A stretch of 64,000 nucleotides of DNA from Isurus oxyrinchus (Eukaryota). The stretch lies in NCBI GenBank assembly GCA_026770705.1, contig JANJGN010000095.1:1736001-1800000 (forward strand). The letters are read 5' to 3'. The notes under the pieces are model-generated. The model saw only the letters and a program-made list of their open reading frames with translations. It was not told where the DNA came from and did not search any database. Positions 98 through 61,526 of this stretch are shown here, piece after piece. The translations under genes were made by a program, and so were the position numbers. Every line of letters begins with the position of its first letter. The stretch's first letter is position 1.

Positions 98-215
98 TAA
101 AACAAAAACAGAATTACCTGGAAAAACTCAGCAGATCTGGCAGACCTGCTGAGATTTTCCAGGTAATTCTGTTTTTGTTTTGGATTTCCAGCATCCGCAG
201 TTTTTTTGTTTTTAT
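98..215 (+). mobile_element. Short Penelope-derived palindromic insertion with a 13-bp target-site duplication
   Basis: 99-181 is a near-perfect inverted repeat (aaaacaaaaacagaattacctggaaaaactcagcag...ctgctgagattttccaggtaattctgtttttgtttt). It is flanked by cccactctcattg (85-97) and cccactcttattg (216-228). The 3' sequence matches the element at 41828-41980. Confidence 0.75.
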
Positions 216-1229
216 CCCACTCTTATTGCGTCCAGTTCCTGCTGGGCCGCCGTCTTGCATTTGTGCAGCAGCTGTTTATTATTCGGTTCAGCTCTGTATC
301 TCCCGACATTGGTTCACCATCCTGTCGATGCTGCTGTCTCATGAACTCCGAGAAGGTAACGCATTCGCTTATTAAAATCACAAGAGAGACGCTCTTTTAC
401 TGAAACATTTGGTCCCAGACCGAGTGTTTAGTTCACCATCCAACAGCTCCTGGGAATTACATGCAATATATTTACTTTCTTCATAAATGCCTGGCTACTG
501 GTTGATATGTGTACTCACCGTTGACTGTCTCAATGACCATTAAGGGTAAAGGCTTCCTCCCGTCTTCTGTAGAAGCTGTGCCCCTGCAGCTTGAGTTCAG
601 AAGGACATCACTAGTGAAGAGTGCATGCACCAGGCGGCTTATAACCAGATTTCTCTTTTCTAACTATTTCAGAGTCTCCAATTTTTCCGGTGCAACAAAA
701 AATGTTTGACGATGTTGCACTTTCACTTTCTCTTGCCCAGGTTTCTGAAAGTTAGGGAATTAATTTGAGATCCTGATAGTCTGATGGCTGCAAATGCGTG
801 TTGCTGCTAAAACACGATAGGATGTGAAAACTGGACAATGTGCTTTCATGTCCTGAGTGAATTGTACTTGCCTCAAATCTTCATTCCCACTCCCATTCTT
901 CAATCCTGCCTCCAGGAGGTATTCTTTGTGTGAAAATGCGGCTCTGCATCTATGTAATTACGGCATTAATGGGTGGTTGATTGGCAGTTACCCCCTGAGG
1001 TTGGCATAATGCTCGGAATAACTGCTGGTCGCTTTGAAAAATATTATTAAAAATGTTTCAATGATGGACACTGAACCATCGTAAAGAGCGAGTCAAAGCG
1101 TGATCGCTGCGATTTCTCATTTAATTTCCCAACCTGGTGACAAGAATCACTCAAAGCGTCGAGGCTGAGCTAGGCAGACCACTATGTGCCTTACAGAGCG
1201 ATAGAGCAAGGACTTTCTTCATTCTCTCC

Positions 1230-1530
1230 AATGTAACATCCCTGACAAGGCCGGCATCCCCATCCCTTGAGAATGGTTAAGTGTCAACCACATTTCTGCA
1301 GACCAGGCTGGGCAAGGACAGCAGATTTCCTTCCGTACGGGACATTTATGAACCGGCTTTTTTTTACAACAACCGACGATACTCTAATGTTGGCCAGCAT
1401 TATTTAAATTAGTTTTATATCCCAGAATGTCTCAACTGATTTGAAATTCGATCAGCTGCCATAGTTGGATTTGAACCTATGTCCCCTGAGCACTAGCCTC
1501 TCTGGATTACTAATCCAGTGACATCAACAG
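1230..1530 (-). mobile_element. tRNA-headed SINE in a BEN-gene intron
   Basis: The reverse complement starts gtcactggattagtaatccagag...ggttcaaatcc (tRNA-like head with B box). The body motif cagatttccttcc recurs, degraded, near 39380-39560 and 60715-60900. Confidence 0.6.
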
Positions 1531-3001
1531 AGAAAAAGGCCAGTCAATTGATGTAGGTACCATTGTCTCTGATCAATTGCTTGTGAGTATATTCTTGGCA
1601 AAGTCAAGGGTGAGAACATGATGTGATCTCTCAGTTTGACCTAAATTCACATATTGTTGGGAGGGTTCCACAAGCACTCACCGACTTTTCATCTTCACGC
1701 CTGCTGTCAATTGCCACTGGGACCAAAGGGACCAAAAATCTCCCGCATGAGCTTTCCAGGATTCACAGCTTCAATGGAAAGGGGAAAGTCGCTGGTTGCT
1801 TTATCTTGCTCTCCAGAGGAATCCAAGGGCTATAGATTCAGAAGCTGTGGAGAGGCAGAAGGGCGGGGGCCACGTGGGGATGATCCACGTGAATTTCATT
1901 ACATTCAATTGCAGGATCTCTATTCACAGAACTCTGTTTTCAGGTGCCTCAAACAATTCATCATAATGTGCAGGGACCCGGCAATCACTGACTGTAGAGG
2001 AAGCTGCTGATTTGTGGAGTGCAGCATGGAACAGGGAATTCTTACCCAGCTTGTCACACAGAGGACATGCTAGTGCCTTGGTCCAGCTGTTAAATTGAGC
2101 CCGCGGTCTATGGTACTCTGCACACAGGATACCATTCTCCTGCCTCTGGGCTTCTATTTCAGCCTGTCATACTCGCTGTCTGACCACTGATATTTATGGA
2201 GATGGATAAAGTGGTGTTGGATCTGCGATGCTGGACTGTGCATGTGCATTACCCACCCATGTAAGTTCAGCTGTTACCAAAGGAAGCTCAGCAGCATGTG
2301 ACTTTGAAAGCAGCTGGTGAGGGGCTCTGATTGGCCTGATGTGGCTGTTGTCATTCTGACTGGGGGCTAAACGTTGAGACTCTGCCTCATGCTGCCATTC
2401 GTCCTTCCCTCTGGCTGCCTCACTTGGCTCCTTTCCGCTGTCACTGTAGAGAGTGGCAGTTTCACCAATGCCGACCACTGCTTGGTGCCACTGGTGGAGG
2501 TTCACACCGTCCTGTTGGTAGGTCGTTCCTCCTCCTGATCATCCTCCAGCTTGGCCACTAACCCTGCACACTTCTGTCGGCTAGTCTACAACCTAAGCCC
2601 AGGTGAATGACACTACTTTCCCTTTTTTCTGTGCTGAGCCACCCCATTGCCTTGGAGTCCAGCAGTGGGAGGGTGCACACTGCCCTTGGTCTTTATTCAC
2701 CTTCTGTGCGCTCGCTCCTGCAGCACGGTCAGCAGCAGCACCCAGCTGCAGATCAGCAGGTTGCTGAGCGGTCCTCAGCTCCTTCTTTAACTCTCCAAGA
2801 GTAATATTTGAATGTCTCAGAAATCAGTCAATTCACAATGAAAAGGATTGAATAAAAGGGTTCTTTGTTTATTGCAGCTATTAATATCTGCCTCTGTAAC
2901 AGTGCAATGATCATTGTTTGTGCTGCACTCTGATGACAAGAACCTAAATCATTTACATGAGTTCACTATTGCAGGCGGTCAAGTTGATCCTCTGAGCAGG
3001 G

Positions 3002-3413
3002 ATGGCTTATACCAAACAGATAGCCTGGAAGTCCAACAACGGCAATGCGCCCAGGAAGCAGCTGGCCTCCAAGGCAGCCCAGAAATATGACCCCTCCACT
3101 GGCGAAGTGAGGAGATCTCATCGCTACAGGCTGGGTACAGTCGCACTCTGAGAAATCTGCCGATGCCAGAATTCCAGATAGAGTTGTTTATCCGCAAAGT
3201 GTCCTTCCAGCGCCTGGTGAGGGAAATTGCCCAGGGTTTCGAAACTGACCTGACGTTTCAGGGTATGGCAATTGGAGCATTGCAGGAAGCCAATGAGGCC
3301 TAGTTGGCTGGAATGTTTGAGGACACCAACCTGTGTGCCATCCATGTCAAAAGAGTGACCGTTATGCCCTAAGAAACCCAGCTGGTACAACGGATCCGGG
3401 GGAGCGTGCTTAA
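3002..3413 (+). pseudogene. Processed histone H3.3 pseudogene
   Basis: ATG at 3002, intronless H3 reading [26 protein letters not shown]...[17 protein letters not shown]...IRGERA*. H3.3-type residues PSTG and xAIGALQEA. Several stops and frameshifts, no stem-loop. AATAAA at 3620-3625 and an A-run at 3641-3647. Confidence 0.9.
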
Positions 3414-5559
3414 ACTCTTTGCTTTATTACTCACCTCCAGACTATTTTGAGGTGATATTCAAACATTTTCTGAAACATTATTGGACTGTAGGTTTGGCTT
3501 CTTTTGGACGCTGGGCCTTTATTTTGTATTTTTGTTAGTTTTGAGTATTGATCGTGTCCTAAAGTTGAAATAGCGAAACATTTTGTAAACATTCCTTCGA
3601 ACTCTTGCTCAGGTTGGAAAATAAACTTTAGTATCTTTTTAAAAAAATGAAATGGTCGTGTTTGACCTATACACTCCCATCTAAACGGGAGCATTGAAGA
3701 AATTATTGTGCAGAGTGTTTTTTTTAAACAGTTTTCTGGCTAGTTTTGCACTCTACGTTGTTCGCCATGACCCCAGGCCTATTTACTAACCTCGCTTCTC
3801 CCTGTCACTGTGGCCTACTCTATGTTACAGGAGGAGAAAATGAAGAACAAATGCTTCCACTTATTCTCAAAATTTTTCTCAAGACCTTTCCTCGCCCCTT
3901 CCATTTGACACAGCGCGTCCCCCCTTCCTCTCGATCCTTCTTGTCGCTCATGCCAGACAGCGGCTCAATCCTGGTCAGCAGCTCCACGATCTAGAAAACC
4001 AGACATAACCTTTGGGTCGCTGTGGCTTGCTCTGCTGGGGACACTGAGTCCTTGGCAGCAATAATATCACTGATGTCCAGATGGCCAAAAGGCACGGTAA
4101 TCACAGTGGACAAAGCCTGATATGAACCTGCTGATGGACTGAGAATAGACAATGGTCAGAGTGGCAGCATTGGTCAGAAAAGACTGAAAATTAGGGTCGG
4201 GAAGCAAAAAGATCTGGAAACACGTTATGACAAGGATTGATGACTACACCAATGTAGAGTTTTGTTTGACCTCTATTGTACTGCAGATGTTTCTAGACCA
4301 TTTTCAAGTGGGTGTAAATATTAAACCTCAAATGGACATTTTGTCCACTGTAAACTAAGTTGAAGAAAACATCTCCCTATGTGCGGGAGTGGCACTGAGA
4401 AAGGGTGGAAACTGAAACAATTCTTGAATAAAGCACGAGCGGCAGATGAAGAGACTTCTGCAGTTGAGATAAACATGTCGCGGGGATCATCTCCCAAATG
4501 TGCTGGAGGCTTTTCAGATCCCCTTCAGGTGATGGCTGGCCTGCGGTCATATTTTCTTTTCTCTCTATCCTGAAAGCAGGGAGTCCAATTTGTAGCCCAG
4601 GATGCACCATGCAGTCTGACTCAGCACAGGGCTGAGTGCTGCATTACTAGCGGCCTCATCATGTGGAGGAGGTTTCAAACTGCAGCAGCCATGTGCCCCG
4701 TCTCCCTAAAGATCACATTCAGAGGATGAAGCAGAGAATTCTCTCAATGTAACAGCTCTTACACGCGGAAAGATTCTGTTAATGGGCCACTTATTTCAAA
4801 GAATATGCCAAAAAACATCAGGGTAGAAGTTTCAAGCCAGTTCTTCCCCCCTCTCACTCGCCTCCCCCATTAAAAACAACTCCAGGCCGGTCTTGCTTCC
4901 CTCCTCCCACATTCTATCACCATGCCATCCTGGCTCCCCGTTCTCCGTATCCATGCTTGCCTGACTCCCCAATTACCCCCACCCCTCACCCCTACCATGC
5001 CCCAATATCAGAATAATTGTTTTCATTCACCAATCCTCGCTCTCTCGGGATCCACATGGTTCTGGCCTTGCCCTTCACCTCTGCCCGACTTAAAACGTTG
5101 TGGCCTCTCCCATCTCGGTCCAAAGGCTCCAACCTCTCGTATTCTCGGTCCCGCTCACTCCTGATTCACCTGGAAATTTTTCAATTACCGATAACAAGCA
5201 GAAAAGGGGCACCGAACAGCACAGGATGTGGAAATACCCCTGGGAGCAGCAGGTACTGTGGGTGCGGCCTGTGGACCACACATAGGGATTTTAATGTGCC
5301 CACCTTTGTGTGGCCGGGAGGGGCAGAGGCCAATCCTCTAATACTGACCTTCCCAGGTACAGGTTGCATTCCCACTTCCTGTCCCGGAACAAGAGGGGAT
5401 TAGATGATTGTTGGAGAACTAACAATGCGCGGGGTTGCGGGGAGAAGGCAGGTGAATTACACCTGGTGAAATGTTCATGTTTTAAAATCTTGTATAAATT
5501 GTGGTTCGTTCTGCTATCGCTTTCAAAAATTAATGGCGGGAATAGCTCCCCATTCACAA

Positions 5560-12269: not shown

Positions 12270-13980
12270 TCAGCCCCTTTTCACCTTCAGGCCTGCTGTC
12301 GAAGCCACCATTACCCTTCAAGAGATCAACATTGTGCCACATGAACTGCAGATTTCCAGGATTCACATCTTGAATGGAAAGAGTAAAGTCACTCATTGCT
12401 CTCTATTTCTACCCAGAACAATCGAATGGCTATAAATTCAGCAGTTATGGGGCGGGGTTGGTTAAAAAGGGGACAGGAGTGATACACGTTCATTGCATGA
12501 CATCCAATTGCAAATCTCTACCAGGGTTAGGGGTGGTCACTTCCAAGTTCACAGTTCACCGTTTTCAGGTCCCTGAAACAATACATCAAAATGTGCAGCA
12601 ATCACAAACTGTAGTGCCATGTTCTTACCCAATTGCTCAACTGAGCCCTCCTGTTCTCTGTACTCAGGTACAGAGTACCTCCTGCCTCAGGGTTTCCATT
12701 TCACCCAAAGTCTCTCATAGGGCCAAGTGCGATTGTCCATCTGCCACACCTCGGACTCTGACCCCTGTTACGCATGGAGGTGGGTAAAGTGGTGTTGGAT
12801 CTGTGATGCTGGACACTCCTTGTCCATTTAGCACCCATGTACGTTCAATTGTTACCAGGTGATGCTCAGCCTTTTTTGGCGGCGAATGCAGCTGGTGAGT
12901 GGCTCTGTGTCTCATTGGCCTGATGTGGCTGTTTTCATTCTGACTGAGGGCAACGTTGAGCCTCTGCCTGATGCTACCCTTCCTCCTTCCCTCTGGCTGG
13001 CTCACTCAGCTCCTTTCCGCTGGCACTGTGTGCAGTGCCCGTTATCATCAATGCTGATCATTGCTCGGTTCCACTGGTGGGCATTGACACGTTTCCAGCT
13101 GTAGATGGTTCCTCCTGCTCCTCATCCTCCAACTTGGCCATTATTCCTGCACACAGCATTCGGCTAGTCTCCAACCCAGGCCCGGGTGAATGACACTGTT
13201 TTCCCTTTCCCTGTGGAGGGCCACTCCCAGTGTCATGGAGTCCAGTGGCAGGAGGCTGCACACTGTCCTTGGTCATCACATTCTTCACCTTCTGTGCGCT
13301 CGCTCCTGTAGTAAAGTCAGCAGCAGCGTCCAGCTGCAGGTCAATAGCTCCTTCCTTAACTCTGCAAAATTAATGTTGCAATGTCCCAGAAATCAGTCAC
13401 CTCACAATGAATACGATTGACTAAAAGTTTCTTTATATCATGCTTATCGCAGATATTAGTATCTGAATCTTTAACAGTGCAATGGTCACTGCCTTGGGCT
13501 GCGCTGTGCAGACAAGAACATAAATCATGTGCCTTAGTTCATTACGAAATGATCAACTTTGTCCTGTAGACACTCGCATAAACGGAAGTATTGAATAAAC
13601 AATTGTGCAGGCTGAATTGTAAACATTTTTCTGCTCAGTTTTACATTCTAACTTGTTTGGCATGTTCCCAGGCCTATTTATTTGTTTAGTTTCACCCTGC
13701 CAAATGGGCTCAAGTTCAGCTTCTATGTGCTATAACAGAAGAAAATAAAAATCCTACCACTGACTTTCAAAGTTTTCCCGAAGAACTTCCCTCTTCCCTT
13801 CCATTTGATGAGGCCCGTCTAATCTTCCGCTCTATCCTTCTGCTCACTCATGGCAGACAGCAGCTCAATCCTGGTCAGCAGCTCCGCGATCCAGTAAATC
13901 AGACATAACTTTCGGCTCACTGCGGCTCGTTCTGCTGGGAGCGCCGAACTCTCTGCAGCAATAAGGTCACTGAAATCCAT
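12270..13980 (-). pseudogene. BEN-domain gene copy 2, 5' exons only
   Basis: Retains the ATG at 13980 (MDFSDLIAAESSALPAERAAVSRKLCLIYWIAELLTRIELLSAMSEQKDRAED*TGLIKWKGRGKFFGKTLK) and the GT donor near 13757. The BEN exons are absent. Confidence 0.7.
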
Positions 13981-16900
13981 TTGAGAGGTGCTGATATGGC
14001 TGTAACAGATGATATTAAAAGCGGAGAAGTGTGGTAAGAAGCAGCTGATGGAGTGAGAGTTGTCAATGACAGAAAGGACTGAAAATTAGTGGCTGGAAGC
14101 AAAAACATCTGGGAACACTTAATGACAAGAATTTGGGTGACTGTACCATATTTTGTGACCTCGATTGGAACGCAAATGTTTCTAGGCCATTTTTAGCTGG
14201 ATATAATTATTAGACTTCAAGTGGGTAAAAACAGTCTGTCTACTCTTGACTGGGAAACAGTCTGTCCACTATAAACGTAGTTGAAGAAAACATCTCTCTA
14301 TGTCCGGAGATAGCATGGAGAAATGATGCAAACTATGATAATGTTTGAACAAATATCGAGCAGCATTTGAAGAGGCTCCTACAGTAGAGATAAAAACATG
14401 TAGCGAGGAACATCTCCCGAATGTGCTGGAGGTTTTGCAGGTCCCTTTGTGATGAGGACTGGCCTGTGGTCATGTTTTGTTTTTTTGCCCTGCATCCAGA
14501 AAGCAGAGAATCCAAGTTCTATACCAGGTTGCACCATGCAGGCTGACTCAGCACAGGGCCGAGTGCTGCATTGCCAGCGGCCTCATCGTGTGGATGAGGT
14601 TCCAAACTACAGTAGCCATGTACCCCACCTCCTTAAAGATCACATTCCAAGTTAAAAGCAGAGAATTATCTTACCTTGAAGTATCAAGTTAATGGACCAT
14701 TTATTTCAAAGAAAATCCGAAGAAAAGCACGATGTTTGTTTCAAGCCAATTCTTCCCCTCACCCCGTCACTGCTCACCCCTGCCCCCACAAACCCACCCC
14801 CCCCCCACCCCCACCGCCGGACCCTCTGAAGCCAACTCCATGCTAGCCTGGCTTCCATCTTCCCACCTGTTATATTCGTGCTGGCCTGACTCCCCCCTCC
14901 CCATTTCTATGGCCTATACACCCCTTCCCCAGAAAGTCCATTATAGGCCCCAATCTCTCGCATTCTCGACCCCACTCACTCAGAATCCATATGGAGCTGT
15001 TCCGATCACAAGCAGTAACGTAGCATACACCAGCACAGGAAATGGAAATACGCCTGGGAGCAGCAGGTTCTGAGGGAGTGGCCTCGGGACCACAGAATGG
15101 ATTTTTATTGTGCCCACCTTTGTGCGGCTAGGAGGAGCAAAGGCCACCCCTCCAATACCCTCCTTCCAAGAAATAGGCTGCATTCGCACTGCCTGTTCAG
15201 GTGCAAGAGGCGATGAGATGATAGTTGGAAAACCATCAATGCGCAGGGATGCGGGGAGATAGCAGAAGAATGGACCTTGTAAAAATGTTTATGTTTTAAA
15301 ATCCTTCCTTGATTGTGATTCACGCTGCTATCACTTTCAAACTTTACCATGCAGGCATAATTCCCCATTCACAACAATGCCTGAGCAGAAACATTTCTAA
15401 AAGCGACACATGTGACTGGAACAACCGTCAAAGTAGATGGGGAAGTAAGGATCACACAAATGGAGGTAGGAAAGTTAGTTGTGAAGGGGATGGAAGGATA
15501 TAGATAGGTTACGTGATTAGACTAAGAGATGGCAAATGGGATGTAAAGTAGGAAAACATGAGTTTGACCATTTTGGCAGGACAAACAAAAAGGGGCACAT
15601 ATTATAAACGGTGAGAGATTGCAGAGCTCGGAGTTACAGAGGGAACTGGGTGTCCTAATGCATGAAAGATTTTGTTCCTTTCTGCTGTTAAACTCTCCAA
15701 AGCCATTGAAATTCGGACAGTCCAGAGTGCCAAGATGGTTGTTCTTGAAAAAGGCTTCTTTCACTGAAAAAACCTTAGTTTAGTTTTAAACCTCTGTTAC
15801 TTCTGCACTGGTCATGTTGTCTCATCCATTCGCTGACACACTCTCTTCCTTTCGCCTGAAATCTCAAAATCAACTCAATCTTCCCATTTTATTCTCACTT
15901 CAGAGCTGGCAGCAGAGTGATCGTATGACAGGGAAATCATTTTGTTCCACACAAGAGGGGCACAGAAATCAGGCACTGAGGGCAGATACAGAAACACAGG
16001 GACATCATTTTAACCCGCCAGCCCCTTTCACACTCTCTGTCCTGCATAATGTTCACGTTTGCACATTCACAGGACAAAACTCCCCCAGATTGACAGTTCC
16101 CGGGATAGGCTTCCCACTCCGCTCGGCCTCTGCTATGGATTCTCCGGGGTTATTTGTAGTTTTGCAGCTCTGCTCACATTGTCTGATCCCCAGATTCGGG
16201 CTGAAACGCATCGCAGCTCTGGCTGGATTAAGACAGGTCTAATGTTACATTATTAGATCATTCACAACCAGCAATATGTTTAATTAATATGGAAATACAA
16301 ATGGTGCGATCTGGCCCTTCAGTAAGCGTATCCCACGTTGTATTATAGGGCAAGGGAGAAAAGGGAGAGAGGGCGGAGTAAAAGACAAAGTCAGGGTGAG
16401 TTCAGGAAGTGAGGCACAGACAGTCAGGCAAAGTATCGATTGCAGAATACATTGTTCAATCCAGTTTTACGAAGGTACAATTGGAACGGCAGAAGATGCT
16501 GTCTCATTTCTCACTGATATTTCATTGGAGAACAATACATTATTAATCACACTCAGGGTCAGTATCAGAGAGTGATCCAAAGCCTCATATTTAAGCCCAC
16601 TTCCCACTTCCCTTTGACTCTCTGCAGTCTTGCAGGACAGGGTTGCTAGGTATTGCTCTCAGTAACGGAGTGTTTCACTTCGATTAAATGAATCTCGGGG
16701 TCTCCCTGTCAGATATTAACTATTGCACGGTCCCAGCAAATCACTACCTCCCTCATTCTTCCCATGTTTCTGCAGGATTGCTTTCTGAAGATGGGCTCGT
16801 GAACAGCAAATCCCCTGCAGGGAATGATGCTAAATTGGAGTTGGTAAAGGGTCAAGCCCCTCACTTTTAAATGTTCTGTGATCTTTTCCCAATCACAACC

Positions 16901-20685: not shown

Positions 20686-23600
20686 CTACCCGGAATTTAT
20701 TTGTGTAGCTGCATAAATAAACGCGTTTGTGCAGGAACTCAAATACATGAGCATTTGTCCAGTTTGAGTGGCGATGTATGCGGGAGCTGTATAATCCGGA
20801 CGTACATGAATGAACATACCATTGACTAATGTAGAAACGACTGCTGTCAGCCACAATAGTATAAAATTACCCGATACAGTGAACAGTAATATAATCGATT
20901 TCCTTCGGTTCTGTATTTCCGGTTCACTGTGATTCTCGTTGCTGTGACCCCGGAGCTCCTTACGGGCTCGACTGGCTACTAAAATCCGTCTGACAGTCAA
21001 ACAATTAAACAGTAATATCAAAGTGAAAGGAATCCAAGTCAATGAAATACTTTGTAGCCAAGTGAATGTTACACCAATAAGAGATGTATAAAATTCCAGG
21101 CTGGGTTGGAAACCCCAGTGAACATTGTCAATTATTCGCTTAGGTTCATATGCAAACCAAAAGGGGATGCACTGTAAACACGAAAGGACAGAGATTGCTG
21201 TTAGAACTGTCACCGCAGTTCTCATTGTGCAATATCTTGTCTTAAACGTGTGAATACAGATAGATACAAAGCGTTCAAATGTGAAGCAGATTGTAAACCA
21301 GACCGAAAAATACAGGTTGACATTATTTGTGTACATTATGAACTTGCAAATGGGTGTATTTGGCAGGATTATATGTGGAAAATGCTTACTCAGGATTTGA
21401 TACACGAGAACATTATTGAGCATGACCAGTAAATCAGCTATTGCCAGGGACAACATATAGAAAGAAGTACATTTTGATAGGCCGCAGGTTCCTCTGGAGA
21501 GAATCACGATTGCCATCAGGTTCGCTGTGGGAAAAAGGGAGAGAAAGTAGCTAGCATGGACACTCACAAACATTCCACAGAATATTACTGAAAATAGTAC
21601 TGCGCATTTCTGCCTTGCATTATATACACATATCCGATTTATAATATTGGACAGTGTTCACGAAATTCCTAAAATAAATAAACGTATATGCACTCTATTG
21701 AGCTTATTTTCAAAAGCAGTATCTTTGAGAAGCTCCTAGCTGAAGCAGAGACTGGAACCAGATTTCTGGCAGTGGGATCTTCAAATTGGAAAACAGACTT
21801 CTGAGAAATGAAGCTGTGCATGTAATTGGTATGGAAATGGAAACTGATTAGGGACTATAATCAGATTGGGAGATAGGATTTCAGTCTGTGGTCAAAACAA
21901 GCAGGAGTCTAAGAAATTGAATTGCTTTTCAGCAGAACCAATGCAGGCCCAGGGGCTCTCGGTGAATCTGTGAATGGGAGCAATCTTTAAAGACTAAAAC
22001 CTGAGAAAATCTTTGAGCCAACCAGGCAAGCTGAAGAGCTGGGAGTTATTTTTGTAAGCAGAGCTGATCATACAGTGTACCAGAGAGCCATTGAATGGTG
22101 GGGTGACAGTGCTTCTGGGAAAACTCCGCCATCAGGACTGTTGTGACCCGAGTGAAAGATGCTACACAGAATTAGGCCTTGTTGATGATTATCGTAATTG
22201 AGGACTGCAGGAGCAAGGTGGAGTTGTGAGAGACACTGGGACTGAACACACTGCCAAATATGTGCTGAGGACTAGCCGAGAAATCCGTCAGATTTACAAC
22301 TGTCGGATCAGCTACTCCAACTCTAATAAACGCTTTCTACTGAATACAATTATCAATTAATTATATATTTTTGTCTATGGTTTGATTTTTTACAGTACAT
22401 GTTAAAAGAAGTGAAATCTTGACCATTGTTTCCTTCCATCGGAGTCCTATGAGAAGTTCGGTTCCAAAAGGTAATTGATTCTCAAGTGGACTGTAACACT
22501 TTGTACAGGGACTGGGACTCTGCCGTCCTCCCGGTAAATTTCAGTCTGATGTTTTCATGGTGCTGAGAGAAGGGTCACTCGAATTCAGTCTAGAGGATGG
22601 TAACGGAGAGTCGCCCCAGGCTGCTGCTACTCCGACCGACACTTATGTATTGATGCCTCAACTGGAGCTAATGTTGACGTAGCTTAATTGTGTAAAACAG
22701 GCAAAATGTGATCCAGCGTCCGTCATACATATCTCCCGATTCTCTTTCAGAGACCATTGCCAATGACATTGGATTGAGGTTTAATTTACATTTAAACTGT
22801 ACAGTGCTAGTCACCCGTGAGTACCTCACAGAGACAGTCCACTTACCGATAAAAAGTTTTGTAAAGGGAAAATGGGATATTTCTTTAACTTGTTGTATTT
22901 AAACGGTCAAATAATAAACACATTTCCTGACATATAACCTACCTGTCATCAGGCCGTTCCCGTGTGATACACCGAGTGAATTTGATAAATTGCCACTGAG
23001 GCTCCATGTTACACTAAAGAGAATTTTACAACCTGCTCCTCCTGATTATTTGGTGATGGGAATCTCGGGAGGGACACCAGATGCCAGCGGTGTACAATAT
23101 AATTTCCAATCCAATACAGGAAGCAATAAATTCTAATAAAATATTCAGCTAAAGAAAATAACTCTGCAATTTAATTCAATACATATCTATTTGACTTTTT
23201 ATAATCGCTCTGAAGGACCCGGTCATGAACTAAACGGGAACAGATGGATCTGCAAAGATTCTTTGCGAGGGAGGAATGAGGAGCAACTTCCTATTCCTCA
23301 AAATATCTTTCTGTTCTCTGCTGGCTGGAGGATGCTGCAGCACTTGGAATTATCAGTGTAAGCTCGGCAATAGGCAACATGACATCTGAGATTGTTAACA
23401 TGGACACTAAGCAACACATTCTTTAATGATCTATGAACTGTTAGAGTTGCGGCAATTCAAACCCCCTCTCCTTAAGGGTGAGGATGAAAATTAAACTCCA
23501 GGTGCCCATAATGCGCCGAGCAGAACCACGGCTCACAGGCCCTGTGAACAGTTATATTTCCCGTTGATATTCAGCATTCATCCCGGTAGAAATATGACTG

Positions 23601-39137: not shown

Positions 39138-39272
39138 AACCTGTGCACTATCCATGCCAAGCGAGTCACCATCTTTACCAAAGACATCCAGTTGGACGCC
39201 GCATCCGCGGGGAGCGAGTCTAAAACACGGCTTCAGTACCAGGTGGAACAACGGCTCATTTCGGAGCTACCA
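39138..39272 (+). pseudogene. 3' fragment of a replication-dependent histone H3 with stem-loop
   Basis: NLCTIHAKRVTIFTKDIQL..RIRGERV* (TAA 39221-39223), with a degenerate stem-loop ggctcatttcggagct-acca at 39253-39272. Confidence 0.85.
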
Positions 39273-40608
39273 CATGGACAAAGGGAAAAGGCGTGATCTG
39301 TCAGTGCTGAGAGCAGCATTTCCCCACCCGTTAAATGTTCTGTACAACTGCGTGATTTTAATAAGACCCAGTGCTTTGCAGGGCCATTTCAGGGGGACAG
39401 TTCAGAGCCCTGTGTCTGGAGTCACATGTTGACCAATCCATGGTCTTGATGACAGATCTGTAACCTGTGATCTGTGTCTGCTTCCGGTAATGGGACTGAT
39501 CGTTAATAAATGGAGTGTGAGCCTGATATCTGGCCTGGAATTCAGAAGCAGCATCTCCCGCACCTGCTGGAACCACATTTTCGTACGAGAAACAGACTAT
39601 GAAATTGTTTCCCCATTCGCAAAATCAATCCCTGTCCCTTTGTTCCTCTGAATGGAATTTCAGCAACGTAATATCTCACCGAAAGAAGCGCAATCTTCAA
39701 AGCTTTGAAAGCCCAGTGCAGATCAACGTTCTAATTTCGCACTCTCATACAGCCCGTAACAGATGAACAGCAATGTTTGCAGCAAAGCAGTGGGATATAA
39801 TTCACAACTTTGCATTGCAAAGCTTGGGTTAGAGTAGGCGTTGTGAATTGGTTGGTTAAAAAGCCTGTTGAATACACATAAGATTCTGCGTTCAAATCTT
39901 AGAGGTTCCTTTATCCGTTTTGTCGATTCATGGTTTTAAATTAAACCAATGATGTTCAGGAACAGCATTGAGAATTAGCCGCCTATATAATGAAGCCGAA
40001 TCGGACCATCGTTTCCTCGGGAGGTTCATGCAGAAGGATCATTTCGAAATATTGCCGGCGATAATTGTGAGCGAGGATTGAATGATTTATGCAACTGCGC
40101 GTTAGGCAGGAAAGAGCGGGGAGGGATAAGTGTTGGAGTTTCTTCGATGAAGGCCTTGGACTGACACTTCTATTTCCACTCCACACGTTGTGATTCGTTC
40201 AATTTAGAACATTGCTCCGAATGAGCTTTGATGTTTTTTCGTGCGATGGTATCATACTTTCCCACAACAAACACCGCATGAAATTGTTTAACTACCTGCG
40301 AAATCCATCTCGGGTCTTTTTAGCTTCCCACTACAATTGTACCTTCCAGGAATCTTTGCAATATTCAAAACCTTAAAGGACTAGTGCAGATATCTGGGTA
40401 TCAAGAGCTGTCACATCGCATGCCACTGGTCAGAGCGAGTAGTAATTGCAAGTTAGAAGATTTGTGAAATGAAACCAAAGGTAGCTGCCGGTCTGTCTGT
40501 GAGGGAAATACTCTGCATCGGGTGAATCAACAAATAAGGAAACACATAATAAGTTTGACTTGATTCTTGTTAAACAATGAAGATGGATATCGGGAAAGGC
40601 AGAGTGAA

Positions 40609-40669
40609 GCCTGGGTTGCTCAGTCGGTAGAGCATCTGAGGGTCCAGGGTTCAAATCCCTGTCTATGCG
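40609..40669 (+). pseudogene. tRNA-Lys(TTT)-type pseudogene with the anticodon arm deleted
   Basis: gcctgggttgctcagtcggtagagcatc-tgagggtccagggttcaaatccctgtctatgcg matches tRNA-Lys lacking agacttttaatc. Confidence 0.85.
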
Positions 40670-45160: not shown

Positions 45161-45224
45161 CTCCGCGTCAGGGAATTGTCTCCCCCTTGACAGGCGGGGA
45201 TACTGACCACCATTGTAACGAGGA
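45161..45224 (-). pseudogene. tRNA-Asp(GTC) pseudogene with the B box deleted
   Basis: Reverse complement tcctcgttacaatggtggtcagtatccccgcctGTCaagggggagac-aattccctgacgcggag. Confidence 0.85.
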
Positions 45225-45412
45225 ATACACAGAAATTATTCGAAGTAAAGGAACCTGGGGTTAGCTTCACACATTAACAAATGAAATTGAATAGTTGGTC
45301 TTACGTAGGGCTGCAGGGGGTGCCGGCTTTCTTCAGTGATCCCAGAGAGAAGGATGGCAGGATAACTTCCATAAGTGAAGTCACAGTGTCTCATTTCCAA
45401 TCTGGGTTTTAT

Positions 45413-46581: not shown

Positions 46582-48943
46582 CCACTTTTCATCTACAGGC
46601 CCGCTGTCAGTGCCAACATTGCCCCCCAAGAGAGCAACAATGCTTCGTATGAACTGCAGCTTTCCAGGAATCACAGCTTCAGCGGGGAGAGGAAAGTCAG
46701 AGGTTACTTTCTCTGTCTACGCAGAGGAATCCAAAGGCTATGAATGCAGCAGGTATGAGATGGGTGGTGAATGGGGAGGTGGCGGGGATGATCCACATAC
46801 ATTGCACGACATCCAATTGCAGAACCTGCACCAGGTTTAGGGGTGGCCAATTCCAAATCACACAACACCGGTTCAGGTGTCTCAAATAATCCATCATAAT
46901 GTGCAGGGAGACAACAACCCCACACTGTATTGTGTTGTCCTTGTCCATAAGTTAAACTGGAGCTGCAATATCTCGTTCTCTGTAAGCAGTACATCATTCT
47001 CCTGCCTCAGGGTTTCCATTTCACACAGAATCTCTCGTAGGCCAGTATGTGCTTGTCCACCGAAAACACCTGGGTGTCTGACGCCTGGTATTTAAGGATG
47101 TGGCTAAAGTGGTGTTGGATCTGTGATGCTGGCCCGTCCATGTCCATTTCCCACCCATGTAGGTTCAGCTGCTGCCAAATGAAACTCAGCCTGATGTGGC
47201 TGTGAACATTGGCCTGATGTGTGACTGTTTTCAATCTGACTGACAGCGGAACGTTAAACCTTATGCTCACGTTCCCTTACCACCAACTCTCTGGATGGCT
47301 CACTTGGCTCCTTTCAGTTGTCACTGTACACACTGTCCGTTTTCACCAATTTTGACCACTGTTCGTGCCACTGCTGGAGGATGAAACAATCCTGATGACA
47401 GGTAATTCCACCTTTTCCTCCTCATCTTCCAGCTTGTTCACTATTCCTGCACACAGCAGTCGGCTAGTCTCCAAACTAGGCCCGGGAGAATGGCAGTATT
47501 TGACTTTGTTTCTGTGGTGAGCCACATCCAGTGCCATGTCGACAAGAGACAGGAGGTTGCACACTGACCTTGGTCTTCAAATGATTCATCTTCTGTCTGC
47601 TCGCTCAGCTGCAGATGAACAGTGTGCTGGACAATCGTCAGCTCTTTCCTTAACTCTGTAAATGTAACATCGGAATGTCTGAAAAATCAGCCAATTCATA
47701 ATGAATAGGATTAACTAGAAGGATTATTTGTTCATCGCTTATTGCAGCTTTTAGTATCTGCCTCAGTAACAGTGCAATGATCATTGCTTGTGCTGTGCTC
47801 TGCAGCCAAACACATAAATCAGGCATCCGAGTTCACAATTGCAGGTGGATAAGGCCATTGTTTGAGCGGTGTTGGCTCATACCAAACAGGTCGCCCGTAA
47901 ATCCACCAATGGCAAAGCACCCAGGAAGCAGCTGGCCACCAAGGCAGCCCGGAAATGTGCCCCCGCCACTGGCGAATTGAAGAAACCTCATTGCTACAGG
48001 CCGGGTAAAGTCGCACTCTGAGAAATACGCCGTTACCAGAATTCCATATAGAGTGGCTTATCCAAAACCTGATGAGGGAAATTGTCCAGGGCTTCTAAAC
48101 TAACCTGTGGTTTCAGAGTGCTGCAATTGGGGCTTTGGAGGAAGCCAGTGAGGCCTACTTGGTTGGCCTGTTTGAGGAGACCAACCTGTGTGCCATCCAT
48201 GTCAAAAAGTGATCGTAATGCCCAAACGCCCCCAGTTGGCAAGACTGATCCCGAGGGAGCATGATTCATTATATTTTCTCCAGACGATTTTGAAGTGACA
48301 TTCAAACAATTTCTAAAGCATTATTGGACTGTAATCTTGGCTTCTTGTGGAGGCTGGGCCTTTATTGTATACGTTTGTTAGTATTGAGTATGATCATGTC
48401 TTAATGTGGAAGTTGCAAAATGTTTCGCAAACATTCCTTCGAACTCTTGGCTCAGTTTGAAAAATAAAACATTTTATCTTTAAAGATATAATAAAAGAAA
48501 ATTGTGGAGTGTGATCTATACATGCACGTCTAAATGGGCATATCGAAAAAAACGATTGAGCCGAGTTATTTTGTAAGCAGTTTTTTTGGCTAGTTTTACA
48601 CTCTACATTGCTTGCCAGCCCCCCAGGCCTATTCACTAACCTTGCTTTCCCCTGTCAAATACGCTCAACTTCACTGCGGCCTTCCCTATCTTACAGTCGG
48701 AGAAAATAAAGAACAAATCTTCCATCTTAGTCTCAAAATCTTCCCCAAGAACTTCCCTCGCCCCTTCTATTTGACCAGGCCCGGCGCCCCTTCCTCACGA
48801 TCCTGGTCGCTCTGGGCAGACAGCGGCTCAATCCTAGTCAGCAGCTCAGCGATCCAAAACACCAGCCACAACTTTCAAGTCACTGCAGCTGGATCTGCCG
48901 GGGGCGCCGAGTGCTCGGCAGCAATAAGGTCAATGATGTCCAG
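46582..48943 (-). pseudogene. BEN-domain gene copy 3, 5' exons only
   Basis: LVFWIAELLTRIEPLSAQSDQDREEGAPGLVK*KGRGKFLGKILRL; coiled-coil-like EMETLRQENDVLLTENEILQLQF; exon VTSDFPLPAEAVIPGKLQFIRSIVALLGGNVGTDSGPVDEKW with a GTGAGT donor at 46581. Confidence 0.7.
47872..48268 (+). pseudogene. Processed histone H3.3 pseudogene (duplicate of 3002-3413)
   Basis: TTG start, [14 protein letters not shown]...[30 protein letters not shown], with an internal deletion. AATAAA at 48463-48468. Confidence 0.88.
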
Positions 48944-51900
48944 GTGGACGAAAGAGATGTTAATAATAGTGGACAAAGCCTGATAGGAACCTGCTGAGCG
49001 AATCAGATGGGCATTGGTCTGAATGGCAGCAATGGTCAGAAAAGACTGGAAATTAGTGGCAGTGGCAGGAAGCTAAAAGATCTTGGAACACCTTATGACA
49101 AGGATTGGAGTGATTATACAATTTTGTGCGATCTCTGTTGAAATGCAAGCGTTTCTACACCATTTTCAACTGAGTGTAATTATTAAAGTTCAAGCGGGTG
49201 GAAATATTCTGTCCTCTTTAAACTAAGTTGAAGAAAACATCTGTCTGTATCCGGGTATGGGACTGAGATAGGCTGCAAACAAATAATGCTTGAATAAAAC
49301 ACGAACAGCAGATGAAGAGACTGTCACTGTTGATATAAAAACGTGAGGATCATTTTATTAGTAAAAAATCAGGGTCGATGTTTCAAGACAGTTCCTCCCC
49401 ATTTTCACCCGCCTCCTCCACTAAAAACAATTCCACGCTGGTCTTGCTTCCCTCCTCCCTGCCTCTATCATCATGCCGTCCTAGCTCCCACTCTCCCATC
49501 TGCGTGCTGGCCTGACTCCACCCTGCCCTTCCCCAATATCACAATAATTGTTTGCATTCTCCACTCCTCCCTCTCTCGGGATCCATATGGTCCCGGCCTC
49601 GCCCTTCACCCGCGTCCGATTTAAAAAGTTTTGTACTCTCCCAGCTCGGGAGTGAGGCTCCAACCTCACGCATTCTCGGTCCCGCTCACTCCCCATCGAC
49701 ATGGAACTGCTTCACTTACTGATATCTAGCAGAAATAGGGCACCGAGCAGCGCAGGAAGTGGGAATACCCCTGGGAGCAGCAGGTACTGGGGTAGTGGCT
49801 TCCAAACCACACAAAGGGTTTTTAATGTGATCACCTTTGTGTGGCTGGGAGGAGCAGAGGCCAATCCTCTAATACTGACCGTCCCAGGCACAGGTTGCAT
49901 TCCCACTTCCTGTCCCGGAGCAAGAGGGGATTAGATGATAGTTGGAAGATAAACAACGTGCAGGGTTATTGGGAGAAGGCAGGAGAATGGCACCAGGTGA
50001 AATGTTCATGTTTTAAAATTCTATATAAATTGTAGTTCGTTCTGCCATCGCTTTCAAACTTTACCGACGGGAATATCTCGGCAATCACAACATTCTTAAA
50101 GTGACACCTGAGACGTGAACATCCGGAAAGGTGGGTACGAAAGTGAGTATGACACAGATGTAGGTCGGAAAGTAAGGTGTGAAGGGGACGTAATGATATA
50201 GATAAGTTACGTGATTGGACAAAGACCTGGCAAATGTGGTATAAAGTAGTAAAACATGAGGTTTCCCATTTTGGCAGGATGAACAAAAAAGAGGCACATA
50301 ATCCAAACGGTGAGAGATTGCAGAACCATGAGATGCAGAGGGGTCAGGGTGTCCTAGTGCATGAACCATTTTGTTTATTTCTGCTGCAAAACTCTCCAAT
50401 ACCATTGAAATTTGAATGATCCAGAGTCCCAGGGCAGATCCTTCCTTTTCCTGAGGCCAGTATGGTTGCATTTGAAAAGGCCTCATTTGCTAACAAAAAA
50501 GCCTCAGTTTCGAATTAAACCTTTTTTTTTTTTATTGCTGCAACTTTCGTGCTGTCTCGCCCATTCGCTGACATGTTCTCTACTTTTCTGCTGAAATCTT
50601 AAGATCAGGGCAATCTTTCCATTTAATTCTCACTTCAAAGCTGGGTAAGGCAGCAGAGTCATCCTCTGACAGGGAAACCGTTTTGTTTTAAGCAAGAGGG
50701 ACTCAGAAATCATGCGAGGAGAGCGGACACGGAAACACAGGGGCAATATTCTAACCCACCAGTCCCTTTCACACACACTCTCTGACATAATGTTGAGCTC
50801 TGCACTTTCACAGGACAAACTGTTGCCAGATTGACAGATCCATTGATAGGCTTCCCTCTCTGCACGGCTTGTTCTATGGATTCTTAGGGGTTAGTTGTAG
50901 TTTCCCAGGTCTGCTCAAAGTGCCTGTTCCTCAGATTCAGGACTGAAACCAATCACAGCTCTAGTTGGATTAACACAGATCTAATTTTATGTTGTTAAAT
51001 TGTTCACAGGCAGAAATACCTTTGATTAAGATGGGGGAAAAAAAAACAAATTGTACGCTCTAGCCCTCCCATATTCATATCCCACTTTGTTTTACAGTAC
51101 AAGAGATAAAAGAGAGAGCGCGGAGTGATAGACAGAAACAGGGTGCGTTCAGGCAATGAGAAACAGACTGTCAGACAAAGTAACTGTTCCAGGAAGCCTT
51201 GTACAGTCTAATTTAACATAAAAATCCTGAACTGGAGAGGTAGAAGATGCAGCCTCATCTATCACGGATATTGTACCAGAGACAAAGATGGTATTAATCT
51301 TACACTCAGGGGCAGTGCCAGCGAGTGAACGAAAGTCGCTTCCCTGCTGAAATCTCTGCCGTCTTTCAGGTCAGAGTTGCTGTGTATTGCTCTCAGTAAC
51401 CGAATGTTTCACTTCAATTATGTGAATCTGGGAGCCCCATGTCAGATATTAACTATTGCACAATCCTAGCAAACCTACCAATTTCCTGACTCCTCCCATG
51501 TTTCTGCAGGATGGCTTTGTGAAAATGAGCTCGTGAGCAGCTAATCCCTGCAGGAATGATCCCAAATTGAGCTTCTTAAACGGACAAGCCCCACTTTTCA
51601 TTGTTCTCTAACATTTTCCACATCTTCAGTCCTTTTGTTCAGATATTGGTCAAAGTAAATTGCGAAAAAATGTTGATTTTAATTGCTGATTCAATGCGGA
51701 AATCCACGCATGAGGTATTTAGTCCCAAACTGAACGCTGATTGCTCGTGAGTTGGAGACTGATCAATACAGAATTAATCCTAGACTCACGGAGAGTGCCA
51801 GAGATTCATATTGATAAAATCAATCCCACAATCATAGACAGTACCAGAGATTGATATTTACAGGCTCAAATCCAAAATGATAGAGAGAACCAGAGACTGC

Positions 51901-53805: not shown

Positions 53806-54980
53806 GGTCAGGGCTGATGGAGCGATGCACTGTCAGTGGTTAAGGAATGGGGGGAGCGCTGCACTGTACGAGGGTGCCACTGATTGATCGCTGCACTGTC
53901 AGAGGTTTAGGCATGAGGGAGCTCTGTTTTGTCAGAAGGTCATGAATCCGGGAGTGCTGCACAGTCAGAGGGTCAGGACTGAGTGGACACTGCACTGTCA
54001 AAGTATGAGGGCTGAGGGAGCGCAGCATTGTTGGAGGGTCAGGACTGCGAGGACACTGCACTGTCAAAGGATTAGGCATGAGGCAACGCTGCATTGTTCG
54101 AGGGTCACGATGAGGGAACACTGCACTGTCTAAAGGTTAGACATGAGAAAACGCTGCATTGTTAGATGGTCAGAACTGAGGGAGCACTGCGCAGTCAAAG
54201 GGTCAGGGCTGAGGGAGCGCTGTATTGTTGGAGGGTCAGGACTGAGGGAACACTGCACTATAAATGTGTCAGGGCTGAGGAAGCGGCGCATTGGCAATTG
54301 TCACGGCTGAGGGTGTGCTGTACTGTCGGAGGGGCAAGACTGAGGAACCACTTCTTTGTCAGAGGGTGCGGATTGTGGGAGTGCTGAACTGTCATATGGT
54401 GGTAGCTCTGCAGTGTCAGAGTGGCAGAACGAAGGAACACCCGACTGACCAGCATCAGGACTGAGGGAGCACTTCACTCTCAAAGCTTCAGTGCTGAGAG
54501 TGCGTTGCACTGTCAGACGGTTTGGTCTGAGAGAACGCTGCACAGATAGATGGTGAGGATTGAGAGAACGCTGCACTGTCATAGGGTCAAGACTGAGGGA
54601 GAGCTGTACTTTTGGAGGATCAGAGCTGAGGCTGTTGCACGATTAGATTCAAACGAATGAAGGAGCAATGCTCAGTCAGTGGGAGAGGACTTAGGGACCG
54701 CTGCACTGTCAGAGGGTCAGGACTGATGGAGCGTTGCACTGTCAGAGAGTTAGGACTGATCGAGCGCTGCACTGTCAGAGGGTTAGGCATGAGGGAACGC
54801 TGCACTGTCAGGGGGTCAGGAATAAGGGAGCGATATGCTTTCAGATGGTCAAAACAGAGGGAGAGCTGCACTCTCAGTGGGTCAGAAATGAGGGAGTGCT
54901 TCACTGTCAAGATTTTCTTGAATGGGGGAGATATGCACAACCAGTGGGTAAGGACTGTGAGGGCTGCATTGTCAGAGGGG
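53806..54980. repeat. 33-bp minisatellite, about 35 diverged units
   Basis: Consensus is approximately gcactgtcagagggtcaggactgagggagcgct. It explains the repetitive ORFs (PLTVQRSLSPD) on both strands. Confidence 0.95.
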
Positions 54981-59617: not shown

Positions 59618-60159
59618 CCATGTTGATAACTTAAATACCCTTGCACTGCCTGACTGTCTGTAATGACCATATTGAATTGATTGGAATAATGATTGATTGA
59701 ATTGAAGCACCTCCTGATAGATGTGTAAAAAGTTGAATCTGACTGCACGTTTTGTGATGGCGATTAAGGATTGTTTTGCAATGTTCTTTCGGATATTTTA
59801 AAATTAAAATATTTTTTTCAAAAAAAAGCTGTTCTCAACAAGGGACTGGAAAAGGTACAGACCCCTTGAGCTGACGGCTCACCAAGAATGCATGCATTGT
59901 CAGTTATTGTATTGTAATTGTATTAACGCACCTCAGAGTGCAACATGATGTATATTGATAACTCCAATATCATTGCACTGCCTGACTGTCTGTAATCACC
60001 ATGTTGAAATGAGTGTAATGTTCATTGGTTGTATTGAAGCACCAGGTGAACCATGTGTAAAAGTGGAGTCTGATTGCACTTTTTTCATTGCGATTTAGAA
60101 ATGTTTTGTAATGTTCTTCCAGATATTGTATGAATAAGGTATGTATTTCAATTAAAAAA
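59618..60159 (+). mobile_element. Two tandem 5'-truncated poly(A)-tailed retroelement 3' ends inserted at the H3 start
   Basis: 59618-59827 and about 59950-60160 are direct repeats, each ending in an A-run. The whole insert is flanked by aactcttcagaaaat (59603-59617) and aactcttcaggaaat (60160-60174). Confidence 0.75.
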
Positions 60160-60172
60160 AACTCTTCAGGAA

Positions 60173-60606
60173 ATTGCCAGCGCCAAGCAGACAAATCAGC
60201 CCGTGGGAAAGCACCGCGCAAACAGCTCCCCCGCCGGAAGAGCGCTCCACACACTGGCCGAGTGAAGAAACCTCATCGCTGCAGAGCCGGCAGTGTGGCT
60301 CTGAGGGAGATCCACCGCGAGCAGAAATCCGCCCGAGGTGTTCATCCGCAACTGCCCTTCGAGCGCCTGGTGCGGGAGATCGCTCAGGACTTCAAGGCAG
60401 ACCTGAGCTTCCAGAGCTCGGCCAACATGAACCTGCTGGAGGCCAGCGAGTCTGACCTGGGGTGGGGCTCATTGAGGACATCAAACTGTACCATCCAAGT
60501 AAGTCATCATCATGCCCAAAGACAACCAGCTGGCCCGCCGCAACTGCAGGGAGCGAGTCTAAACCCCGGCTTCAACACCAAGTGTAACAGCTTTTCAGAG
60601 CCACCA
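60173..60606 (+). pseudogene. Replication-dependent histone H3 (H3.2-type) pseudogene
   Basis: [23 protein letters not shown]...[33 protein letters not shown]. Start codon is ATT, with deletions and frameshifts, TAA at 60560-60562, and a partial stem-loop cttttcagagccacc. Confidence 0.92.
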
Positions 60607-61526
60607 AATGGAAAAAGGGAACAGGTGTGAACTTTCACGGCTGAGACCAACATTTCGTCGCCCCCTAAGTGATCTTTACAGCTGAGTTATTTTAATAACC
60701 ACCAATGGTTTGTTGGACCATTTCAGGGGGCAGTGAAGGGCACTGTGCCTGGAGACACATGTCGACCAATCCATGATGAGGATGACAGATCTGTAACCAA
60801 TGACCTGTGTCTGATTCCGGTGATGCGGCCAATCTTTAATTAATGGAGCGTGAGTCTGATATCTGACCTAGAATTCTAAAACAGCATCTTCCGTACATGA
60901 CAGGCCTCAGATGACAGGTTTTCTTAAATTAATGAATAATGTTGCTGATTTACAAAGAATTGTTGTTTTCAAACACTATTTTTAGGAGCGGATATGTGTG
61001 AGCAGAAGGTGTAGGGAAATAAATGCGGATAAACTGAAAAAAGGGCCGGGGTTTGAGTTATTCGCCCAGTCCATGAAAGCGTCTGACGCCGGTATACTGG
61101 GCAAACTAAGGCACAGACGTGGCCTAACCCGCGGACGTAACCAGCATTGTCTGACTTTAATACTGGTTAACCTGGCCGCTATAATTCAATTGCTCTGGAG
61201 AATTGAACAATGTTTCTGATCTCTTGGAAATCACAACGCGCCTTTTACTTATTGTATTCAGTGTTTACATTTCAGGGTTTTGTATCATTTTAAACAATTC
61301 AACTTGAACAGGATGCAGTGCTAACAGGTGAATCTCACACATGGAAACAGATTAATCTCACAGTTATAACGAGGAACTACGACAGTAATGACCGTCAGTA
61401 AATACCTAATCACGGCCTCAAATATCGGACTGTATTTCCCAACCCATTCCACTCTGCTCATTTTTGGTATCATTAAATGAGTGCATATTTCAGACAGTAA
61501 CCAACCCTTTCACAGAGACTGTGGGT

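What the first reader, a model, noticed from the sequence alone, without database searches (positions are those of the whole stretch)
223..4080. Hidden spliced BEN-domain gene, invisible in the ORF track
Seen: five minus-strand exons, mostly with canonical splice sites. They encode an N-terminal beta-rich module (CLVFWIAELLTRIEPLSA...VKWKGRGKFLGKILRIS), a low-complexity linker, a coiled-coil-like stretch (EMETLRQENDVL) and a C-terminal LVHALFTSDVLLNSSCRG...RKPLP...ELNRIINSCCTNARR. Established: this pattern is typical of BEN domains, which are DNA-binding/chromatin repressor modules (BEND3/5/6, BANP, Insensitive) also found in viruses and mobile elements. Inference: it does not look like a one-to-one orthologue of a mammalian BEND gene and may belong to a lineage-specific, amplified BEN family lodged in a histone/tRNA cluster, possibly transposon-borne. 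All three copies here are disabled, so a functional source gene would lie elsewhere.
Basis: partly seen in the sequence, partly recalled or inferred. Interest (0 to 1): 0.7.

Follow-up and report, generated by a model that had tools for sequence, protein, structure and literature searches.

The report
Shark transposon's dead BEN helper gene
This is a broken copy of a predicted DNA-binding helper gene that an apparently extinct jumping-gene family, likely of a shark, carried beside its cutting enzyme, and it was likely copied over a hundred times only because it sits next to a transfer-RNA gene in a repeated cluster.

Summary
The spliced gene is real: five exons, and a BEN domain closest to NACC1 (profile E 1.8e-11; Pfam BEN stays below cut-off). 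It is not a host gene. Older copies on many large contigs lie inside DNA elements with 21-bp terminal inverted repeats starting CCCTA (114 genome hits, 0 for the control), 2-bp target duplications (11 of 29 end pairs) and, in six loci, an EnSpm/CACTA-type transposase, five of them head-to-head with the BEN gene. The gene is therefore the second (accessory) gene of an animal CACTA/'TRC' transposon, likely a TnpA-like end binder. The window copy has lost the termini, transposase, start codon and three splice sites; copies 2 and 3 lack the BEN exons. Its at least 133 genomic relatives are mostly one clade beside a tRNA-Asp gene (32 of 35 loci), already broken at the last acceptor (28 of 32), with that exon evolving neutrally: a passenger of tRNA-array amplification. 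No intact source gene was found. The BEN-EnSpm pairing was not in the papers I searched, but this scan noted it before on other animals' DNA.

The parts
3858..4020 (-). Exon 1, N-terminal module of unknown fold. ATG replaced by GCG at 4020, TAG at 3993, donor GT lost.
   Evidence: open frame in dispersed copies
1893..2792 (-). Exon 2, low-complexity linker plus coiled-coil-like stretch. Several stops and frameshifts; donor lost.
872..923 (-). Exon 3, small exon matching the N-terminal part of the basking-shark model P0001. TGA at 883, GC donor.
519..744 (-). Exon 4, N-terminal two thirds of the BEN domain. Canonical splice sites, TAG at 666, short compensated frameshift.
223..347 (-). Exon 5, C-terminal BEN helices (..CCTNARR..) and stop codon. 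Acceptor CAG changed to CGG.
4021..4544 (-). Element-derived 5' non-coding DNA, homologous to the dispersed copies. No TIR, left end or transposase beyond it.
99..181 (.). Short inverted-repeat interspersed repeat inserted just after the stop codon, also present in unrelated loci
12307..14466 (-). Copy 2: exons 1-2 only, disabled, no BEN exons
46617..49340 (-). Copy 3: exons 1-2 only, disabled, no BEN exons
45161..45225 (-). Decayed tRNA-Asp-like sequence downstream of copy 3 (77% identical to the tRNA-Asp that follows copy 1)
60112..60630 (+). Histone H3-like pseudogene (cluster context)

Best explanation
The region is a broken, end-less fragment of the second gene of an animal EnSpm/CACTA ('TRC') cut-and-paste transposon family, whose BEN protein likely bound the element's own ends, and it was likely multiplied passively as spacer DNA of a tRNA-Asp repeat. 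Shown: the full element is TIR (5'-CCCTA) - left end - transposase (reverse strand) - GC-rich tract - five-exon BEN gene - right end - TIR, with 2-bp (sometimes 3-bp) target duplications and many internal-deletion derivatives. Inferred: the protein (N-module, coiled coil, NACC-like BEN) dimerised through the coiled coil and bound the short subterminal repeats, like maize TnpA, to help pair the ends or regulate the shared promoter. The family died; one truncated copy landed beside a tRNA-Asp gene, lost its last splice acceptor, and was then spread by segmental amplification of tRNA/histone clusters. The window copy makes no functional protein.
For: BEN: P0001 vs NACC1 BEN E 3e-8; profile A1 E 1.8e-11, the only PDB hits. 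Dispersed intron-containing copies on many large contigs. Sharp shared ends that are inverted repeats; 114 TIR hits vs 0 control. 2-bp TSD in 11 of 29 pairs (P 7e-7) and 3-bp in 3 of 29. Transposase_21-like remnants (E 1.6e-5, below cut-off): 5 of the 8 closest loci have BEN-gene pieces nearby, plus a sixth locus on C23. Internal-deletion derivatives join exon 1 to the right end. Past coding constraint between dispersed copies: omega about 0.55-0.64. Amplified clade: tRNA-Asp adjacent in 32 of 35 distinct loci vs 0 of 8 dispersed; last acceptor lost in 28 of 32; exon-1 stop in 13 of 13 near copies; exon 5 omega 0.92, neutral; BEN exons diverge about as fast as introns while the tRNA is better kept in 6 of 10 pairs.
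Against: No single element was seen with both TIRs, a TSD, transposase and all five exons intact; C23 and C3:145.8 Mb come closest and have decayed ends. 15 of 29 TIR pairs show no exact TSD. Two of the 8 close transposase loci have neither BEN nor TIR nearby, one has a TIR but no BEN, and one (C21) has the genes on the same strand, with a local inversion. Pfam BEN and Transposase_21 both stay below their curated cut-offs. Exon 4 of the amplified clade shows omega 0.64 (p 0.02) and pairwise omega 0.50 vs 0.93 in shifted frames. That may be ascertainment, since the loci were picked by protein similarity to exon 4, or a phase of real constraint. In 4 of 10 pairs the tRNA is no better kept than the flanks. 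End binding by the BEN protein is untested. The window copy itself has no TIR, so its origin rests on homology.
Confidence: 0.82

Rival explanations
1. The amplified clade is a domesticated BEN gene family: one transposon copy became a host gene, expanded in the tRNA/histone clusters, and only later decayed in part.
For: Loss of TIRs and transposase in 20 amplified sequences. Exon 4 frame is open in most of the 133 hits. Exon 4 omega 0.64. An earlier scan note reports a domesticated relative in carpet sharks (e1-9819357, unchecked).
Against: The in-frame acceptor of exon 5 is absent across all subfamilies sampled (28 of 32). The 4 that have it form one nested subclade that also carries the exon-1 stop. 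Exon 5 evolves neutrally. No intact exon 2 was found (4 matches among 117 candidates, longest open frame 193 aa of about 314).
Confidence: 0.1
2. A host NACC-like gene was captured by the transposon as inert cargo (Pack-CACTA-like) and never served transposition.
For: The BEN domain is much closer to NACC1 than to any other solved BEN. Many TIR-bounded derivatives carry unrelated inserts.
Against: Fixed head-to-head position beside the transposase in five loci. Coding constraint among dispersed copies. No BTB or NACC-like architecture; no parent host locus among the hits.
Confidence: 0.06
3. The recent amplification is the element's own transposition rather than hitchhiking.
For: High copy number and 94-98% identity among near copies.
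Against: Identity runs through the flanks and the tRNA gene with no TIR or TSD. The copies cluster on small contigs and one region of C20.
Confidence: 0.02

Closest known systems
Animal CACTA/EnSpm 'TRC' elements: SmTRC1 of Schistosoma and the Tribolium and Aedes TRCs (PMC1636069, passages read)
   Same: CCC-starting TIRs (the Tribolium TIR also starts CCCTA), 2-bp TSD in about half of the copies, Transposase_21 similarity
   Different: SmTRC1 makes its extra proteins by alternative splicing of one unit and no BEN domain was reported in the passages read. Here a separate, divergently oriented five-exon BEN gene is present, and all copies seen are dead.
Maize En/Spm TnpD + TnpA (roles as stated in PMC1636069 background passages; subterminal binding recalled)
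   Same: Transposase plus a second, predicted DNA-binding protein; short repeats in both subterminal regions
   Different: No sequence link to TnpA was tested. The genes are head-to-head rather than spliced from one transcript, and the DNA-binding domain is BEN.
NACC1 BEN domain (PDB 8yzs, 7bv9)
   Same: Whole BEN domain aligns, including the KLELV-like start and CTNARR end
   Different: No BTB domain; instead a short N-module and coiled coil. The NACC CATG-type site (PMC11514455, passage) is not enriched in the element ends.
XP_078415413.1, Cetorhinus maximus uncharacterized LOC144691243 (P0001)
   Same: Only clear protein homologue found; 82-87% identical to a locus on C15
   Different: It covers exons 3-5 only. 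Its counterpart here is frameshifted and has no exon 1-2 or element ends within 30 kb, so it looks like a gene model on a fragment.
BEND5-type layout: N-module, coiled coil, BEN (recalled, not tested)
   Same: Same order of parts
   Different: No sequence comparison with BEND5 was possible; the one single-BEN host exon tested (L045) gave only a marginal match (probability 5%).

Membership tests
BEN domain (PF10523) | Pfam BEN score above the curated cut-off (23.2 bits) | tested here: not met
   13-14 bits, E 0.05-0.09, right region of the model
BEN domain (PF10523) | Significant full-length similarity to a solved BEN domain | tested here: met
   NACC1 BEN E 3e-8, 1.8e-11
BEN domain (PF10523) | BEN fold in a confident model | tested here: inconclusive
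   pLDDT 48 single-sequence model; NACC1 ranked third at E 0.7
BEN domain (PF10523) | Sequence-specific DNA binding | not testable with these tools
   needs a binding assay
CACTA/EnSpm (CMC), animal TRC type | TIRs beginning CAC/CCC | tested here: met
   5'-CCCTA, a few CACTA, in dispersed copies; absent from the window copy
CACTA/EnSpm (CMC), animal TRC type | 2-3 bp target-site duplication | tested here: met
   11 of 29 pairs with 2 bp, 3 of 29 with 3 bp
CACTA/EnSpm (CMC), animal TRC type | Transposase_21-related transposase inside the TIRs | tested here: met
   E 1.6e-5, 24.7 bits vs cut-off 28.6 for one piece; E 0.01-0.04 for two others; position between the ends
CACTA/EnSpm (CMC), animal TRC type | C(2)C and H(3-4)H motifs, DDE triad (PMC12730594, passages) | tested here: inconclusive
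   CPNC, DG..FKSS, CDLPA and DYMH are seen in the majority translation; the second H and the last E were not identified
CACTA/EnSpm (CMC), animal TRC type | Subterminal repeats | tested here: inconclusive
   TGACATCA-type words 0.94 per end vs 0.02 shuffled, three in one left end; ends are homologous, so counts are not independent
CACTA/EnSpm (CMC), animal TRC type | Present-day mobility | tested here: not met
   all transposase hits are broken; copies about 25-35% diverged
NACC1/NACC2 (BTB-BEN) | N-terminal BTB domain and single-copy synteny | tested here: not met
   exon 1 and the stop-free exon-2 pieces scanned give no BTB hit; at least 133 copies
Tudor-like N-module (label from earlier scan notes) | Beta-barrel fold or profile hit | tested here: inconclusive
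   no Pfam or PDB hit; low-confidence helical model

The most novel reading that the evidence does not exclude
Animal EnSpm transposons use a BEN protein as their TnpA-like partner, and this shark family's NACC-like BEN marks the transposon lineage from which vertebrate NACC1/2 (and BEND5-type genes) took their DNA-binding domain; the relic here also shows dead transposon cargo riding tRNA-array amplification to more than 130 copies.
Probability: 0.22. Interest if true: 0.75.

Novelty: new variant of a known kind. Interest (0 to 1): 0.45.

Why it matters
It ties a BEN-domain gene to a vertebrate CACTA/EnSpm transposon and gives a testable idea for the origin of vertebrate BEN transcription factors, since the cargo domain is specifically NACC-like. 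It also warns that a 130-copy 'gene family' in a shark tRNA/histone cluster, and a database gene model in basking shark, can be transposon debris. The locus itself is dead, and the scan has better, intact examples of the pairing elsewhere.

Tried and rejected
Homologue searches with longer proteins found nothing (weak evidence); the 'near' search found only P0001; P0002 is a low-complexity artefact. The ESM Atlas was unavailable. Both AlphaFold models were uninformative. No RNA holder was listed, and no reads were laid, so expression is untested. The Pfam BEN genome search did not ring on this family (5 hits at two other loci). A BTB genome search was of no use. Codon-model omega timed out and was replaced by counting tests. 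The interiors of short TIR-bounded derivatives showed no transposase. Retrocopy origin was rejected because introns are kept. A Harbinger or piggyBac assignment was rejected: no TAA/TTAA target, and the transposase is EnSpm-like. A TIR-like hit at window 54905 (4 mismatches) lies in a tandem repeat and is treated as chance. Three key papers were not held (Pan 2023, tried by DOI and PMC id, and an id recalled for the 2008 BEN paper); Repbase could not be searched, and no supplements were read; any of these may already mention the pairing.

Full report
Observation. The quoted peptides are on the minus strand. Projecting the exon structure of older copies onto the window gives exons at 4020-3858, 2792-1893, 923-872, 744-519 and 347-223, with consistent phases. 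Copy 1 has lost its ATG, has stops at 3993, 883 and 666 and several in exon 2, and 3 of 8 splice sites are destroyed, including the exon-5 acceptor. Copies 2 and 3 hold exons 1-2 only.

BEN identity. Pfam BEN matches the right region but stays below the cut-off (E 0.05-0.09). A search of 1.84 billion representatives gave 2 hits. One is low-complexity noise; the other is P0001, a 142-aa basking-shark model. P0001 matches the NACC1 BEN domain at E 3e-8. A profile that includes the window's exons 4 and 5 does so at E 1.8e-11, with no other PDB hit. Folding added nothing. That the host is a shark is inferred from this homologue.

Two classes of copies. Exon 4 has 133 matches among 149 candidates, a lower bound, mostly on small contigs and C20 79-81 Mb. 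Eleven near copies are 94-98% identical, introns included, over 5-6 kb. A second class is dispersed on large contigs, about 25-35% diverged, with introns kept.

The element. Dispersed copies share sharp ends that are inverted repeats beginning CCCTA. The 21-mer has 114 genome matches at up to 1 mismatch against 0 for the reversed control. One search listed 31 end pairs; I dropped 2 nested alternatives. Of 29, 11 have a 2-bp and 3 a 3-bp duplication; 15 have none, as expected in part from decay or mis-pairing. Many copies are internal deletions joining exon 1 to the right end. A Transposase_21 search found one weak locus, whose frame scores E 1.6e-5. Searching with it gave 16 matches at 10 loci. 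Two of these are distant (about 30% identity). Of the other 8, five have BEN-gene pieces nearby, one has a TIR only and two have neither; a further locus on C23 runs TIR, left end, transposase, exon 1, BEN exons, right end. The genes are head-to-head in five loci and on the same strand in one, which has a local inversion. These features match animal CACTA 'TRC' elements: CCC termini, 2-bp TSD and Transposase_21 (PMC1636069, passages; PMC6004678 and PMC12730594, passages). Dispersed copies show moderate past coding constraint (omega 0.55-0.64, p 0.008-0.017, 6 copies). No intact gene or transposase turned up.

The window clade. The window and 19 amplified-region stretches have no TIR, end segments or transposase by profile search; one search gave only marginal wrong-strand transposase hits (E 0.006 or worse). 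A tRNA-Asp gene follows the BEN fragment in 15 of 18 loci and 18 of 18 loci, one shared, so 32 of 35; 0 of 8 dispersed loci have one. The exon-5 acceptor is lost in 28 of 32 amplified copies and kept in 5 of 6 dispersed ones. The four amplified exceptions are a nested subclade that carries the exon-1 stop. Exon 5, which was not used to pick the loci, evolves neutrally (omega 0.92, p 0.45). Exon 4 gives 0.64 (p 0.02), which may be ascertainment and is the main point against pure hitchhiking. Across five subfamilies the exons differ about as much as the introns, while the tRNA is better kept in 6 of 10 pairs. Large tRNA clusters that co-occur with histone genes are reported for elasmobranchs (bioRxiv 10.1101/2025.06.08.657570, passages).

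Mechanism. Shown: the element anatomy and the decay of the window copy. Inferred: a coiled-coil dimer with BEN domains binding repeated end motifs (TGACATCA-type words are enriched in the ends, counts not independent), analogous to TnpA; and passive amplification with the tRNA array.

Literature. EnSpm plus BEN domain gave 0 papers. CACTA plus BEN gave 2, BEN plus transposon terms 9 and 19, and BEND5 plus domestication 2; none of the listings appeared to be on this pairing (listings only). Searches were also listings. Passages were read in PMC10789644 and PMC11514455, neither of which contains 'transpos'. Key BEN papers and Repbase were not available, so absence from print is not established. 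Earlier scan notes report the same pairing in several animals and a NACC-like dead copy in this genome without the transposon link; I found the element before reading.

Verdict. The feature is real and well explained, and the locus is dead. The interest lies in the family: a vertebrate EnSpm with a NACC-like BEN partner gene. Interest 0.45.

Noticed in passing
G000:C95:1735328-1735401 (L040 9328-9401, minus), about 600 bp before window base 1: tRNA-Asp(GTC) gene linked to the BEN fragment; five loci of one subfamily carry an ATC anticodon variant (L053-L057)
   Followed up: yes
window 20686-21657 (-): Single-exon rhodopsin-family 7TM receptor frame (Pfam E 8e-24), no clear start; resembles the expanded shark GPR139-like receptors (label recalled)
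   Followed up: no
window 60112-60630 (+): Histone H3-like pseudogene; related pieces near 3097-3385 and 39152-39566 by self-BLAST
   Followed up: partly
window 53805-54979: Degenerate tandem repeat array of about 33 bp with long open frames on both strands
   Followed up: no
window 40609-40669 (+): Decayed tRNA (Rfam 37 bits), missed by ARAGORN
   Followed up: no
window 63020-63604 (-): Reverse transcriptase fragment (Pfam RVT_1 E 5e-15)
   Followed up: no
L160 7982-9697 (C5) and L158 7029-9336 (C14): A second, more distant EnSpm/Plavaka-like transposase family with longer surviving frames and no BEN gene detected nearby
   Followed up: partly
L061 3281-3771 (C15:35.49 Mb): Counterpart of the basking-shark model LOC144691243, frameshifted here; suggests the insertion predates the split of the two sharks
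   Followed up: partly
L107 interior: Decayed LTR-retrotransposon (Gypsy-like) insertion inside a TIR-bounded copy
   Followed up: no
L100, L108, L110, L111, L116, L123 and L113, L114, L131: Other non-autonomous subfamilies share the same TIR but have different interiors
   Followed up: partly
L041-L044 (C6:151.43 Mb) and L045 (C13:140.95 Mb): Host BEN genes: a four-BEN 758-aa frame (BEND3-like, recalled) and a single-BEN exon; neither is close to this family
   Followed up: partly
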